Positions 8,174 through 19,274 of a stretch of DNA of 64,000 nucleotides are shown piece after piece. Made by a program: the position numbers and the translations under genes. The notes beneath the pieces were generated by a model. It was not told the origin of the DNA, ran no database searches, and saw only the letters and a program-made list of their open reading frames with translations. Each line of letters opens with the position of its first letter. Position 1 is the first letter of the stretch. The stretch comes from Escherichia phage LinBro, in sequence record OR896830.1. One strand, given 5' to 3'.

Positions 8174-8747
8174 AAAAGGTCTAGTTAGAACCTTAGTGGA
8201 TGTTATTGGTCACAGACTAGCTCGTGATAAAAATAATAGACCAAATGTAATTAGAGCTTACCCTTCTGATAACTCAAATGACAAAGGTTTAAAACCTGAC
8301 CAGCCATTTATTACCGTATATTGTCAAGATGCTGCAACACCTTATGGTTGGGTTCTTGATAAGTTTGTTGAGGATGATGTAGTTTGCTACAGAATTGCTT
8401 TTCAGATTCCAGTATTAATTACGGTGAATGGTAAAGGTGCTCACAGTATTATGCTTGAGCTTAAACAACGATTAGAGATGAGTTCAGTCAGAGATTTAAT
8501 CCTTGAAGAAACAGGAGCTACAGTACTAGACACTGGAGCTATCCCGAATGACTACACTTATCTCAATACAGATTTCGAAAATTCTGCGCCTCTTGTTGTA
8601 ACTCTTGTAAAAAACTCAGTCCTGAAGGATGAACGTGGAAGTATTATTGAGCGTGTCATTGTTGATGGTGAGTTGGTTTATGAAGAAGGACAAGAGCCAC
8701 CAGAATATACTATCCATCTAGATGTAGACTCCAAAGGGGTAAAATAA
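8148..8747 (+). CDS. hypothetical tail completion protein
   Basis: 199 aa ORF directly upstream of sheath gene. Confidence 0.35.
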   Translation: MQLETAELEKGLVRTLVDVIGHRLARDKNNRPNVIRAYPSDNSNDKGLKPDQPFITVYCQDAATPYGWVLDKFVEDDVVCYRIAFQIPVLITVNGKGAHSIMLELKQRLEMSSVRDLILEETGATVLDTGAIPNDYTYLNTDFENSAPLVVTLVKNSVLKDERGSIIERVIVDGELVYEEGQEPPEYTIHLDVDSKGVK

Positions 8748-10100
8748 ATGTGGAATCCAATTGTTAATGTAGATATTACATTGAACACCGCAGGAACTAC
8801 AAGAGAAGGTTTTGGTTTGCCACTATTCTTAGCTTCAACAGATAACTTTGAAGAAAGAGTGCGTGGTTACACTTCCTTAACTGAAGTTGCTGAAGATTTC
8901 GATGAGAATACTGCTGCATATAAGGCTGCTAAACAACTTTGGAGTCAGACTCCTAAAGTAACTCAGCTTTATATCGGTAGACGCGCTATGCAGTACACTG
9001 TATCAATTCCTGATGCCGTTACCGAAAGTACAGACTACTCAATTACTGTAGCTGTTGGCGGTGGAATTTCTCAACCATACCAGTACACAGCACAAGATTC
9101 AGACACTGCTGAGGTAGTGTTGCAACAGTTTAAAACACAGATTGAAGCTGACCCAACAATCAAAGATAAGGTTTCTGTGAATGTAACTGGTAGCAATGGC
9201 TCTGCCACAATGATTATTACCAAAGCTGGTGATAATGACTTTGTGAAAGTAACAACCACAGCACAGACTGTATATATTGCAAGTACAACTGCTGATACAG
9301 CAGCAACTGCTCTGGCAGCTATCGAAGCTTACTCTACTGACTGGTATTTCATTGCAGCAGAAGACAGAACTCAACAGTTTGTCTTAGCAATGGCTTCTGA
9401 GATTCAGGCTCGTAAGAAAATCTTCTTTACGGCTAACTCCGATGTAACAGCCCTACAAGGTACAGAATTAGCCAGTGCAAATGATGTTCCAGCACAGCTT
9501 GCTAAGAATATGTACACTCGTACAGTTTGCTTGTGGCATCACGCAGCAGCAGAAGATTATCCAGAGATGGCATACATTGCTTATGGTGCTCCATATGATG
9601 CAGGCTCAATTGCTTGGGGTAATGCTCAGCTAACTGGCGTAGCAGCTTCTCTACAACCATCTAATCAGAGACCTCTGACAAGTATTCAGAAGTCTGCTTT
9701 AGATGTACGTCACTGTAACTTTATTGACCTTGATGGTGGTGTTCCAGTGGTTCGTAGAGGGATTACTTCTGGTGGGGAATGGATTGATATCGTCCGTGGT
9801 GTTGACTGGTTAGAATCAGACCTGAAAACTTCTCTGAGAGACTTGCTAATTAACCAGAAGGGTGGTAAGATTACTTATGATGATACTGGTATTACCCGTA
9901 TTCGTCAAGTCATTGAAACCTCTCTGCAAAGAGCAGTCAACAGAAACTTCCTGTCATCTTACACAGTTAATGTTCCTAAAGCCTCTCAAGTTGCTTTAGC
10001 AGACAAGAAAGCACGTATCCTGAAAGATGTTACCTTCGCAGGTATCTTAGCAGGGGCTATCTTGGATGTTGACTTGAAAGGTACAGTGGCTTACGAATAA
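8748..10100 (+). CDS. tail sheath protein
   Basis: 450 aa ORF immediately upstream of a ~150 aa tube-sized ORF, chaperone pair and tape measure: the contractile-tail gene order. Confidence 0.55.
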   Translation: MWNPIVNVDITLNTAGTTREGFGLPLFLASTDNFEERVRGYTSLTEVAEDFDENTAAYKAAKQLWSQTPKVTQLYIGRRAMQYTVSIPDAVTESTDYSITVAVGGGISQPYQYTAQDSDTAEVVLQQFKTQIEADPTIKDKVSVNVTGSNGSATMIITKAGDNDFVKVTTTAQTVYIASTTADTAATALAAIEAYSTDWYFIAAEDRTQQFVLAMASEIQARKKIFFTANSDVTALQGTELASANDVPAQLAKNMYTRTVCLWHHAAAEDYPEMAYIAYGAPYDAGSIAWGNAQLTGVAASLQPSNQRPLTSIQKSALDVRHCNFIDLDGGVPVVRRGITSGGEWIDIVRGVDWLESDLKTSLRDLLINQKGGKITYDDTGITRIRQVIETSLQRAVNRNFLSSYTVNVPKASQVALADKKARILKDVTFAGILAGAILDVDLKGTVAYE

Positions 10101-10115
10101 TAGAGGTAAATTGGA

Positions 10116-10562
10116 ATGGCTATGTATCAGCAATATTCCCCTAAAGACGTTGTATGTAGCTGGAATGGTATTGCCATTGAAGGCTTTGCCCCAGACTCAT
10201 TCTTGCGTCTACAGAGAACATCACCACTCGTGACACCAGTTGTTGGTGCAGGTGGTCAAGTTGCTCTGACAAGAAATGCAGACAAGACAGGTACTATTGA
10301 GATTGAGTTAATGCAGACTTCTCTCTCTAACCAGATGCTTTCTGCAATTCAAGCTAAACAAGACAATATGGAACTTGAAGAAGATATCTCTTCTAACTTC
10401 GTAATCTACGACCCATCAGGCTCTGTTCTGGCAACTGGTATTAACGCTTGGTTGCAGGAGTTACCGCAGATTGAACTTGGTCGTGACCAGAACTCTAAAA
10501 CTTGGATTTTTGGTTGTGAGAAGTTAGACTACACTTCTACAATTCCAGCGTCAAGTGTTTAA
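10116..10562 (+). CDS. tail tube protein
   Basis: 148 aa ORF between sheath and chaperone genes, followed by strong terminator. Confidence 0.55.
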   Translation: MAMYQQYSPKDVVCSWNGIAIEGFAPDSFLRLQRTSPLVTPVVGAGGQVALTRNADKTGTIEIELMQTSLSNQMLSAIQAKQDNMELEEDISSNFVIYDPSGSVLATGINAWLQELPQIELGRDQNSKTWIFGCEKLDYTSTIPASSV

Positions 10563-10574
10563 TAAATCCTATAA

Positions 10575-10607
10575 GGGGGAGACTTTAAAAGGTCTTCCCC
10601 TTTTTTG
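10575..10607 (+). terminator. rho-independent terminator after tail tube gene
   Basis: 9-bp GC-rich stem GGGGGAGAC/GTCTTCCCC (one G-U pair) with 8-nt loop, followed by TTTTTTT. Confidence 0.7.
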
Positions 10608-10635
10608 TTTCTTTTAAAAGTATTAAGGAATCACA

Positions 10636-11034
10636 ATGAAAACAGAATCTAGAGTAATTAATGGTAAGAAAGTAAATATCATCCTGCTTGGGGCAAGAGA
10701 TGGTATTAAGATGTCTATGAAGTTGGGTAAAATTGTTGTTCCAACATTTGCACAGATGCTGTCAAGTCTTACGGATAAAGATAAGAAAGAAGCTCCAATG
10801 GTTCCATTTAAAGAACTTGTTGAAGCTTGTTTTGACAGAATTGAAGAAATTAACCTTGAAGAGATGGCTACCCTGCTGTTTCAAGGGGCAACTGTTGATG
10901 ACTTCCCACTTAATATTGATACGTACTTCCAAGCAAACTACGGTGAGTTTATTGATTACTTAGCATTTGCGCTGGAGGCAAACTTCGGAAGTTTTTTCGA
11001 AGCAAGCATTTTCAAAAGCCTAACTTCTCAGTAA
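10636..11034 (+). CDS. tail assembly chaperone (upstream frame)
   Basis: 132 aa ORF between tube and tape measure; contains slippery heptamer near its 3' end. Confidence 0.55.
   Translation: MKTESRVINGKKVNIILLGARDGIKMSMKLGKIVVPTFAQMLSSLTDKDKKEAPMVPFKELVEACFDRIEEINLEEMATLLFQGATVDDFPLNIDTYFQANYGEFIDYLAFALEANFGSFFEASIFKSLTSQ
10992..10998 (+). other. candidate programmed -1 ribosomal frameshift site (T_TTT_TTC)
   Basis: Heptamer TTTTTTC in X_XXY_YYZ register relative to ORF 10636-11034; -1 frame is open from here through ORF 11037-11276. Confidence 0.5.
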
Positions 11035-11036
11035 AC

Positions 11037-11275
11037 ATGGGTAACACTCTACAGACACCACTAACTGATGCTGCTGTAGAGGCAACCTATGAAGAAGCAG
11101 ACGAGATGAAATTTGTGCTTGCTATTTATGGTATGGAAGGGTGTAAAGAAACACTTGACCAACTCTTTGCTATGACATTCTCTGATTTATTATCATTGAG
11201 ACAATTTCTTGAAATTCAGAGGTCGTATAAAGAGGAAATTGCTTACAACGAACTTAGAAGAGCAGGAAAAATGTA

Positions 11276-11276
<1 letters not shown>
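11037..11276 (+). CDS. tail assembly chaperone frameshift extension (-1 frame)
   Basis: 79 aa ORF in -1 frame relative to upstream chaperone, immediately before tape measure gene (ATGG overlap). Confidence 0.5.

Positions 11277-19274
<7,998 letters not shown>

What the first reader, a model, noticed from the sequence alone, without database searches (positions are those of the whole stretch)
10636..11276. Candidate programmed -1 frameshift in the tail assembly chaperone pair
Two short ORFs between the tube and tape measure genes are arranged as in the conserved G/GT-type chaperone system. A slippery heptamer T_TTT_TTC (10992-10998) lies in X_XXY_YYZ register near the end of the first ORF, and the -1 frame is open from there through the second ORF (FFRSKHFQKPNFSVNMGNTLQ...).
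Basis: partly seen in the sequence, partly recalled or inferred. Interest (0 to 1): 0.45.

Follow-up and report, generated by a model that had tools for sequence, protein, structure and literature searches.

The report
Tail chaperone frameshift site, already annotated
This Felix O1-like phage almost certainly makes a short and a long tail-assembly chaperone from one start codon by a ribosome slipping back one base at TTTTTTC, an ordinary, widely conserved phage trick that close relatives already have annotated.

Summary
The window is a Felixounavirus (Felix O1-like myophage). ORF1 (10636-11034) is a tail assembly chaperone (Pfam PF21822). T_TTT_TTC (10992-10998) sits in X_XXY_YYZ register, and the -1 frame runs from there to 11276, giving a 213-aa fusion.

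One sequence alone is weak evidence: about 9% chance of some heptamer in the 25-codon overlap. Comparison is decisive:
- All 18 lineage representatives (27-99% aa identity) keep NNT_TTT_TTY in register with a 79-106-codon -1 extension.
- The ATG of "ORF2" is not conserved.
- Synonymous variation collapses from the slip site onward.
- The site lies in a 41-nt island of 93% identity against 55% elsewhere.
- A Buttiauxella prophage encodes an in-frame homologue that aligns across the junction, and its short chaperone uses non-slippery TCA TTC TTC.

An SD-like GGAGG lies 13 nt upstream. No conserved downstream structure was found.

It is not new. The homologous fusion proteins are in GenBank/RefSeq for Salmonella phage Mushroom (same genus) and Citrobacter phages Moogle, Michonne and Mordin, and two genome announcements state the frameshift. 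I found no experimental demonstration. The practical value is annotation repair: the other relatives' records I inspected list two ORFs or leave the T segment blank.

The parts
10636..11034 (+). ORF1, the 'G'-type tail assembly chaperone: 132 aa, the product of standard translation, stop TAA at 11032-11034.
10974..10978 (+). Internal Shine-Dalgarno-like GGAGG, 13 nt upstream of the heptamer. It is a candidate upstream stimulator of the dnaX/IS911 type.
   Evidence: Read directly. GGAG(G) lies 11-13 nt upstream in 12 of 18 lineage representatives. The Glu codon at this spot is GAG in 12 of 16 cases, against 36% GAG window-wide, binomial p 0.002. It meets the 6-17 nt criterion of Sharma et al. 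2014. Its function is inferred, not shown.
10992..10998 (+). Slippery heptamer T_TTT_TTC. tRNA-Phe in the P and A sites can re-pair on UUU UUU after a -1 slip.
   Evidence: The register was verified. NNT_TTT_TTY is kept in 18 of 18 lineage representatives even where the preceding codon changes family (AGT, TCT, ACT). The H_HH.U_UU.Y class is among the most efficient in E. coli.
10981..11021 (+). Island of nucleotide conservation over the slip site and the dual-coded stretch after it.
   Evidence: It is the only segment that blastn matches in Erwinia Kolesnikvirus phages, at 92.7%. Identity to L036 is 0.93 in the island and 0.55 elsewhere in the region. Among amino-acid-invariant columns, the codon is also invariant in 8 of 10 from S119 on, against 5 of 29 upstream, Fisher p 7e-4.
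10998..11276 (+). The -1 frame 'T' segment read after the slip: 92 codons from CGA at 10998-11000 to TAA at 11274-11276. The GT fusion is join(10636..10998,10998..11276), 213 aa.
   Evidence: Translation. The -1 extensions of 18 lineages align as one protein domain with a conserved core Y....(N/C)KE(T/S)L..L..M(T/S). phrog_4963, E 2.8e-55. A single-frame 201-aa Buttiauxella prophage protein aligns with fusion residues 81-208 across the junction, E 6e-13.
11037..11276 (+). 'ORF2' as gene callers annotate it (79 aa from ATG 11037). Most likely it is not an independent gene but the tail of the T segment.
   Evidence: There is no GGAG, GAGG or AGGA in the 25 nt upstream of 11037. The first in-frame ATG wanders from codon 13 to codon 80 after the heptamer among lineages. 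One Felixounavirus contig, L020, has ATA at this position. Kolesnikvirus records have no called ORF here at all.
11276..13483 (+). Tape measure protein, the presumed client of G and GT. Its ATG overlaps the T-frame stop (TAATG).
   Evidence: Pfam PF20155 TMP_3, E 2.4e-16; phrog_4036 at full length. The overlap was read.

Best explanation
This is a programmed -1 ribosomal frameshift of the lambda G/GT (P2 E/E+E') kind. Most ribosomes translate ORF1 to its stop and make the 132-aa chaperone G. A minority pause with tRNA-Phe on UUU (P site) and UUC (A site) at 10993-10998. Both tRNAs slip back one base onto UUU UUU, and translation continues in the -1 frame from CGA (10998) to 11276. That yields a 213-aa GT protein with the same N-terminal 121 residues. 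By analogy with lambda, the G part of both proteins coats the tape measure protein and the T part recruits the tube protein. Slip efficiency would therefore set a fixed G:GT ratio from one mRNA and one start codon. The likely stimulator is the internal SD-like GGAGG 13 nt upstream, with no downstream structure. Shown here: the geometry, the family assignment, conservation of the slip site, conservation of the T domain, and the lack of a conserved start for T. Inferred: that the slip occurs on the ribosome, its efficiency, the role of GGAGG, and the chaperone mechanism.
For: Geometry and register. Uniqueness among 72 in-register heptamers. ORF1 is Pfam Phage_TAC_15 and lies between the sheath/tube genes and the tape measure gene. 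NNT_TTT_TTY is kept in 18 of 18 lineage representatives with a 79-106-codon -1 extension; in the 27 divergent loci the +1 frame closes within 1-21 codons of the 0-frame stop. Codon usage alone gives T TTT TTY for S-F-F only 31% of the time. Four lineages found through a search pattern that does not contain the SFF motif also keep a T7 heptamer. So does L059, which was reached through a protein search. Synonymous-site suppression starts at the slip site, and there is a 93% versus 55% identity island. The T domain is a conserved protein family with no conserved start codon. Natural control: the Buttiauxella prophage L058 has the same N-F-G-S-F-F peptide encoded as TCA TTC TTC, no -1 ORF, and a separate in-frame G'-T gene that aligns across the predicted junction, E 6e-13. 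U_UU.U_UU.C is an efficient motif in E. coli and is used by IS elements. P2 uses TTTTTTG without a downstream structure. Independent annotators reached the same join: the fusion proteins I built from Mordin's sequence and from a Felixounavirus locus are byte-identical to the deposited Mordin/Michonne and Mushroom proteins, and a 212-aa Moogle fusion sits in the same cluster.
Against: I found no experimental evidence (fusion peptide, reporter assay) for any Felix O1-like phage in the searchable literature. No downstream stimulatory structure is supported: the MFE of the 62 nt after the heptamer is -3.4 kcal/mol with z +1.29, and the alignment fold has a positive covariation term. The SD-like element is missing in 6 of 18 lineages. 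Most of the related loci were found with a peptide pattern that includes SFFE, which biases the sample towards keeping the amino acids, though not the codons. In Felixounavirus itself an ATG 2 nt after the ORF1 stop could allow some separate ORF2 translation.
Confidence: 0.85

Rival explanations
1. Transcriptional slippage instead of ribosomal slippage. RNA polymerase inserts one extra U while copying the T6 run (T7 in some lineages). A minority of mRNAs then carry the T segment in frame and give the same GT protein, ...S F F R S K..., by standard translation.
For: The site is a homopolymer run, and some lineages have T7. A weak nascent-RNA hairpin (10972-10988) followed by the T run was flagged by the terminator scan. 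Sharma et al. note that U7 and A7 runs are avoided in all frames, possibly because of transcriptional slippage. The protein product would be identical, so none of my comparative evidence separates the two mechanisms.
Against: T6 is shorter than the runs that give useful slippage by E. coli RNA polymerase; programmed cases typically use 7-9 or more (established knowledge, from memory). The hairpin is weak, with 6 pairs including G-U, and is not conserved in the other lineages (sequences). The run always ends exactly as a tRNA-Phe re-pairing heptamer, with the SD-like element at frameshift-stimulating spacing in 12 of 18 lineages. The homologous, experimentally studied P2 site T6G is treated as ribosomal.
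Confidence: 0.08
2. There are two independent proteins and no fusion. ORF2 is translated from its own ATG at 11037, for example by termination-reinitiation after the ORF1 stop at 11032-11034. On this view the heptamer is incidental coding for Ser-Phe-Phe.
For: Most database records, including RefSeq, annotate it this way. In this window the ATG lies 2 nt after the TAA, a geometry that permits reinitiation.
Against: There is no SD upstream of 11037. The ATG moves or is absent in other genera; Kolesnikvirus has none for 57 codons. One Felixounavirus contig has ATA at this position. The -1 peptide upstream of the ATG (RSKHFQKP) is conserved across the Ounavirinae representatives examined. The slippery codons are conserved beyond what the amino acids require, and are lost exactly where an in-frame GT gene exists.
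Confidence: 0.04
3. It is a chance co-occurrence of a heptamer and an open -1 frame with no function.
For: In-register heptamers are common: 72 in the window, about 9% chance within the 25-codon overlap.
Against: It is conserved in all 18 lineage representatives, shows synonymous suppression, carries a conserved T domain, and has the natural control described above.
Confidence: 0.01

Closest known systems
Bacteriophage lambda gpG / gpGT -1 programmed frameshift (Levin, Hendrix & Casjens 1993; Xu, Hendrix & Duda 2004, 2013, 2014)
   Same: There are two overlapping reading frames just upstream of the tape measure gene. Short and long chaperones share one start. A heptamer near the end of the first frame directs a -1 slip. 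The expected function is to set the G:GT ratio for tail assembly (review text).
   Different: The slip sequence differs: lambda uses G_GGA_AAG (from memory), whereas this site is T_TTT_TTC. The chaperone sequence family differs (Phage_TAC_15). The host phage is a contractile-tailed myovirus with sheath and tube genes upstream. An SD-like element lies upstream here. Efficiency has not been measured here.
Bacteriophage P2 E / E+E' frameshift (Christie et al. 2002)
   Same: P2 is also a myovirus, and the chaperone pair lies between the tube and tape measure genes. The slip is -1 on a T6 run (TTTTTTG in P2), and no downstream RNA structure is present.
   Different: The last base is G in P2 and C (or T) here. 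There is no detectable sequence similarity between the chaperones. The products are 91 and 142 aa in P2, against 132 and 213 aa here. P2's frameshift was shown experimentally; this one was not.
Annotated fusion chaperones of Ounavirinae: Salmonella phage Mushroom YP_009600435.1 (Felixounavirus), Citrobacter phages Michonne YP_009177317.1, Mordin ALA06885.1 and Moogle YP_009145710.1 (Mooglevirus)
   Same: These are orthologous genes. The same heptamer and junction (...GSFF|R(S/G)KHFQKP...) were verified in the Mordin, Moogle-length (L033) and Mushroom-matching sequences. The Mushroom, Mordin and Michonne proteins equal the fusions I built independently, and Moogle's 212-aa fusion sits in the same cluster. 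The frameshift is stated in print for Michonne and Mijalis.
   Different: The window's own fusion sequence differs from Mushroom's at two residues (S5F, I16V) and is not itself in the protein collection. The other relatives' records I inspected list two separate ORFs.
E. coli dnaX / IS911-type -1 frameshift signals with an upstream SD-like stimulator
   Same: A GGAGG lies 13 nt upstream of the heptamer, within the experimentally stimulatory 6-17 nt range.
   Different: dnaX and IS911 also use a downstream hairpin, and none is supported here. The heptamer is U-rich rather than A_AAA_AAG.

Membership tests
Conserved tail-assembly-chaperone -1 frameshift (lambda G/GT type, Xu-Hendrix-Duda 2004) | A pair of overlapping reading frames located between the major tail (tube) gene and the tape measure gene | tested here: met
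   The order is sheath 8748-10100, tube 10116-10562, ORF1 10636-11034, ORF2 frame to 11276, tape measure 11276-13483. PF11681 is named Phage_Tube_PhiTE.
Conserved tail-assembly-chaperone -1 frameshift (lambda G/GT type, Xu-Hendrix-Duda 2004) | The upstream frame encodes a tail assembly chaperone | tested here: met
   PF21822 Phage_TAC_15 at 70.9 bits against a cut-off of 22. phrog_1613, E 7e-49.
Conserved tail-assembly-chaperone -1 frameshift (lambda G/GT type, Xu-Hendrix-Duda 2004) | A slippery sequence in the overlap, in a register that lets the P- and A-site tRNAs re-pair in the -1 frame | tested here: met
   T_TTT_TTC at 10992-10998, with 0-frame codons TTT TTC. The motif class is efficient in E. 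coli.
Conserved tail-assembly-chaperone -1 frameshift (lambda G/GT type, Xu-Hendrix-Duda 2004) | The second frame is -1 relative to the first and extends well past the first stop | tested here: met
   The -1 frame is open from 10956 to 11276, 92 codons after the slip and 80 beyond the stop.
Conserved tail-assembly-chaperone -1 frameshift (lambda G/GT type, Xu-Hendrix-Duda 2004) | The arrangement and slip site are conserved in divergent relatives, and the second frame lacks a conserved initiation signal | tested here: met
   All 18 lineage representatives keep the heptamer. The first ATG lies 13-80 codons downstream. No SD is present, and L020 has ATA at the ORF2 start. Synonymous suppression is seen from the slip site on.
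Conserved tail-assembly-chaperone -1 frameshift (lambda G/GT type, Xu-Hendrix-Duda 2004) | Both the short product and the fusion product are made, at a low fixed ratio | not testable with these tools
   This needs proteomics or a reporter assay. Indirect support: an in-frame natural homologue aligns across the junction.
Conserved tail-assembly-chaperone -1 frameshift (lambda G/GT type, Xu-Hendrix-Duda 2004) | G and GT bind the tape measure protein, T binds the tube protein, both are needed for tail assembly, and both are absent from virions | not testable with these tools
   The Felix O1 genome paper identified only three virion protein bands by mass spectrometry, and a term search found no mention of chaperone or frameshift in it. 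No binding data were found.
dnaX/IS911-type signal (SD-like element + heptamer + downstream hairpin) | An SD-like sequence 6-17 nt upstream of the motif | tested here: met
   GGAGG at 10974-10978 with a 13-nt spacer, present in 12 of 18 lineages.
dnaX/IS911-type signal (SD-like element + heptamer + downstream hairpin) | A stable, conserved hairpin or pseudoknot starting 4-10 nt after the motif | tested here: not met
   Folding gave -3.4 kcal/mol with z +1.29 for 10999-11060. The nearest stable hairpin starts 38 nt downstream and is not conserved. The alignment fold gave -6.5 kcal/mol with a covariation term of +1.56.
Programmed transcriptional slippage site | A homopolymer run long enough for RNA polymerase realignment, typically 7-9 or more A or T in bacteria | tested here: inconclusive
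   The run is T6 in the window and T7 in 4 of 18 lineages. Length alone does not exclude low-level slippage, and the product would be identical.

The most novel reading that the evidence does not exclude
The 27 nt after the heptamer (CGAAGCAAGCATTTTCAAAA...) are almost perfectly conserved across the four Ounavirinae genera compared, yet no structure is predicted there. This could reflect more than dual coding. It might be an unstructured frameshift stimulator, acting through mRNA-ribosome contacts or through the nascent FFEASIFK / FFRSKHFQ peptide, together with the upstream GGAGG. Separately, the Buttiauxella prophage replaces the frameshift with two genes (G plus an in-frame G'-T). That gives a natural system for asking why ratio-setting by frameshifting is so persistently kept.
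Probability: 0.07. Interest if true: 0.4.

Novelty: already known. Interest (0 to 1): 0.15.

Why it matters
Biologically this is one more instance of the most widespread recoding event in tailed phages, so it changes nothing conceptually.

The practical value is in annotation. The other relatives' records I inspected, including the RefSeq entries for Alf5 and phiSUSP1, list two separate 'tail assembly chaperone' ORFs. The two Erwinia Kolesnikvirus records I inspected (phiEa21-4, Roscha1) leave the T segment as an unannotated 237-nt gap. The correct model is one start and two products, with the join at the heptamer.

Felix O1-like phages are widely used for Salmonella and E. coli biocontrol and typing, so a correct gene model is useful. 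The family also offers a well-defined slip signal (T6Y plus an upstream SD-like element, no downstream structure) and a natural non-frameshifting variant for anyone studying ratio control.

Tried and rejected
1. Downstream stimulatory hairpin or pseudoknot. Single-sequence folds of the window and five relatives, plus an alignment fold of six Ounavirinae sequences, gave nothing conserved at the right spacing.

2. An 8-bp hairpin that contains the heptamer itself (CUUCGGAA-GUUU-UUUCGAAG). It is not conserved in Kolesnikvirus. It would also be melted by the ribosome, so I rejected it as a stimulator.

3. A stable hairpin at 11036-11091 that buries the ORF2 ATG (z -1.95). It is not conserved, so I kept it only as a note.

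4. A terminator-like hairpin at 10972-10988 followed by the T run. It is weak and not conserved, and I mention it only under the transcriptional-slippage rival.

5. A phage-encoded tRNA-Phe, tRNA-Glu or tRNA-Arg that might tune the slip. No tRNA genes lie in this 64-kb window.

7. A protein search with the whole fusion returned only 124-136-aa G homologues, none of fusion length. Exact look-ups were needed to find the deposited fusions.

8. Literature searches for an experimental demonstration in Felix O1-like phages found none.

Full report
**What the window is.** Megablast of 8700-13500 finds 297 phage records. The best is Escherichia phage bumzen at 98.8% identity, and nearly all the top hits are Felixounavirus (Ounavirinae, Felix O1-like myophages of E. 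coli, Salmonella and Shigella).

The local gene order is as follows:

| Coordinates | Gene | Support |
|---|---|---|
| 8748-10100 | tail sheath | PF11863, phrog_205 |
| 10116-10562 | tube | PF11681, named Phage_Tube_PhiTE |
| 10636-11034 | ORF1 | see below |
| 11037-11276 | ORF2 | see below |
| 11276-13483 | tape measure protein | PF20155, phrog_4036 |

ORF1 is a tail assembly chaperone: Pfam PF21822 Phage_TAC_15 at 70.9 bits against a curated cut-off of 22, and phrog_1613 at E 7e-49. ORF2 has no Pfam hit, but it matches phrog_4963 'tail assembly chaperone' over its full length (E 2.8e-55).

**Checking the observation.** The sequence at 10990-11001 is AGT TTT TTC GAA, which reads S F F E in the ORF1 frame.
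- T10992 is a third codon position, so TTTTTTC (10992-10998) is in X_XXY_YYZ register.
- The -1 frame is open from 10956, after TGA at 10953-10955, through to TAA at 11274-11276.
- From the slip it reads FFRSKHFQKPNFSVNMGNTLQ..., in frame with ORF2.
- A -1 slip gives join(10636..10998,10998..11276), which is 121 + 92 = 213 aa.

**Is it more than chance?** From this one sequence the case is only modest.
- The 87 crude ORFs of the window contain 72 in-register X_XXY_YYZ heptamers in 19,975 codons. Some heptamer would fall in a 25-codon overlap about 9% of the time.
- However, 10992 is the only one of the 72 whose -1 frame outlasts the 0-frame stop to any real extent: 81 codons, against 2 for the next best.
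- It is also the only one of 26 Phe-Phe dipeptides encoded in slippery form.

**Comparative evidence.** This is what settles the case. A pattern scan of IMG/VR with an alignment of ORF1 homologues returned 48 loci, ranging from 27% to 100% identity.

*Slip site and -1 frame.*
- In all 27 divergent loci examined, the -1 frame continues 57-91 codons beyond the 0-frame stop. The +1 frame closes within 1-21 codons.
- In 18 lineage representatives the heptamer is always NNT_TTT_TTC or NNT_TTT_TTT, in the same register.
- The preceding codon changes family (AGT, TCT, ACT) but always ends in T.
- From the window's codon usage, S-F-F would be encoded as T TTT TTY only 31% of the time.

*Ascertainment.* One of the two search patterns contained SFFE, so the amino acids are partly selected for, although the codons are not. 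Four lineages that lack SFFE (L041, L047, L051, L052) were necessarily found through the other pattern. They carry T_TTT_TTT. L059, reached through a protein search, also has T_TTT_TTC.

*No conserved start for the T segment.*
- The first in-frame ATG lies anywhere from 13 to 80 codons after the heptamer.
- The Erwinia Kolesnikvirus records have no called gene there, just a 237-nt 'gap'.
- One Felixounavirus contig (L020) has ATA where this window has the ORF2 ATG.
- There is no SD-like sequence in the 25 nt before 11037.
- Even so, the -1 extensions of all 18 lineages align as one protein domain, with a conserved core Y....(N/C)KE(T/S)L..L..M(T/S).

*Nucleotide-level signal.*
- Sensitive blastn matches the Erwinia phages only at window 10981-11021, at 92.7% over 41 nt.
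- In a global alignment with L036, identity is 0.93 in that island and 0.55 elsewhere.
- In a codon alignment of six Ounavirinae representatives, I counted how many amino-acid-invariant columns also have an invariant codon. The figure is 5 of 29 upstream of the slip site and 8 of 10 from S119 onward (Fisher p 7e-4).
- This is what two overlapping translated frames predict, and the effect starts at the heptamer.

**A natural control.** The ORF1 homologue P0084 lies in a Buttiauxella noackiae prophage (L058).
- It has the same peptide N-F-G-S-F-F, but encoded as AAC TTT GGC TCA TTC TTC, which is not slippery. It has no -1 extension.
- It is followed by a separate 201-aa gene with a weak Phage_TAC_15 hit.
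- That protein aligns with residues 81-208 of my predicted fusion, straight across the junction: NFGSF--FRSKHFQKPNF against NFGVFLSFVVKPFVKPDF. The alignment continues through the T domain, E 6e-13.

So a GT-like polypeptide exists in one frame in nature. Where it does, the slippery codons are not maintained.

**Stimulators.** No downstream structure is supported.
- The 62 nt after the heptamer fold to only -3.4 kcal/mol (z +1.29).
- A stable hairpin begins 38 nt downstream and buries the ORF2 ATG, but it is not conserved.
- The six-sequence alignment fold gives -6.5 kcal/mol with a positive covariation term.

Upstream there is a GGAGG at 10974-10978, 13 nt before the heptamer.
- GGAG(G) at 11-13 nt is present in 12 of 18 lineages.
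- The Glu codon that creates it is GAG in 12 of 16 cases, against 36% GAG window-wide (p 0.002, ignoring relatedness).
- Sharma et al. 2014 (PMC4066793) take SD-like sequences 6-17 nt upstream as experimentally stimulatory. They place H_HH.U_UU.Y heptamers among the most efficient in E. coli, and they note that U_UU.U_UU.C is used by IS elements.
- P2, also a myovirus, shifts at TTTTTTG without a downstream structure (PMC3091744, citing Christie 2002 and Xu 2004).

**Mechanism.** The best-supported reading is a -1 ribosomal frameshift of the lambda G/GT kind.
- G (132 aa) comes from standard decoding.
- GT (213 aa) comes from a minority of ribosomes whose two tRNA-Phe slip from UUU UUC to UUU UUU.
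- By analogy with lambda (review PMC5009743), G and the G part of GT coat the tape measure protein, and the T part recruits the tube protein. The slip frequency would then fix the G:GT ratio.

The frameshift geometry and its conservation are shown here. The ribosomal nature of the slip, its efficiency, the role of GGAGG and the protein interactions are all inferred.

The main rival is transcriptional insertion of one U at the T6/T7 run. It would give an identical protein and cannot be separated computationally. I rate it low because T6 is short for E. coli RNA polymerase slippage. Independent translation of ORF2 may add a little product in this genus, since the ATG lies 2 nt after the ORF1 stop. 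It cannot explain the family-wide pattern.

**Is it new?** No.
- Citrobacter phage Mordin (Mooglevirus, about 80% nucleotide identity here) carries a two-piece joined CDS called 'tape-measure chaperone' over the orthologous genes.
- The fusion I built from Mordin's sequence by slipping at its TTTTTTC is byte-identical to ALA06885.1 (Mordin) and to AKU44019.1 / YP_009177317.1 (Michonne). Moogle has a 212-aa fusion in the same cluster.
- Within the same genus as the window, the fusion built from one Felixounavirus locus equals AJF40599.1 / YP_009600435.1 of Salmonella phage Mushroom.
[quoted passage not shown] The Mijalis announcement says the same (PMC5543628).
- The window's own fusion sequence is not in the collection.
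- The other relatives' records I inspected list two ORFs.
- The Felix O1 genome paper does not mention the frameshift.
- I found no experimental demonstration for this phage group.

**Verdict.** The feature is a textbook, already-annotated programmed frameshift. It is of low scientific surprise, and its value is mainly in correcting gene models.

Noticed in passing
window 10573-10612: A strong intrinsic terminator (13-bp stem AAGGGGGAGACTT/AAGGTCTTCCCCTT followed by TTTTGTTT) lies between the tube gene and the chaperone gene. The same element is annotated as 'terminator' in the wV8, KhF1/KhF3 and Mordin records. It probably attenuates transcription into the chaperone and tape-measure genes relative to the sheath and tube genes.
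   Followed up: partly
window 11274-11278: The T-frame stop TAA (11274-11276) overlaps the tape measure start ATG (11276-11278) as TAATG. The same context is seen in Suspvirus and Mooglevirus. The tape measure gene also has its own AGGA upstream.
   Followed up: partly
window 11036-11091: A stable hairpin pairs the ORF2 ATG (CAUGGGU with ACCUAUG). The 102-nt fold that contains it has MFE -24.5 kcal/mol, z -1.95, and 3 of 200 shuffles fold as well. This would disfavour independent initiation at 11037, but the pairs are not conserved in other genera.
   Followed up: partly
L058 3001-3986 (Buttiauxella noackiae JPRU01000001.1 prophage): This relative encodes the short chaperone and an in-frame G'-T protein (201 aa) as two separate genes, with a non-slippery TCA TTC TTC at the homologous spot. 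It looks like a lineage that replaced the frameshift by gene duplication.
   Followed up: partly
L004 1269-1506 and L006 1269-1506 (Erwinia phages phiEa21-4 and Roscha1): These records leave a 237-nt unannotated gap between the chaperone and tape measure genes. The gap is the T segment of the frameshift product: T_TTT_TTC at locus position 1212, with the -1 frame open to 1502.
   Followed up: yes
records GU169904.1 (Staphylococcus phage SA1) and WP_252560994.1 (Staphylococcus hyicus): Records labelled Staphylococcus carry Felixounavirus sequence: SA1 DNA is 98% identical to the window, and a Staphylococcus hyicus protein sits in the same 90%-identity chaperone cluster. They are most likely chimeric or contaminated assemblies rather than a real host jump.
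   Followed up: no
[not shown]
   Followed up: no
window, all ORFs: Only 1 of 26 Phe-Phe dipeptides in the window's ORFs is encoded as T_TTT_TTY, and it is the chaperone site. This suggests that the slippery form is avoided elsewhere. No tRNA genes occur in this 64-kb window.
   Followed up: partly
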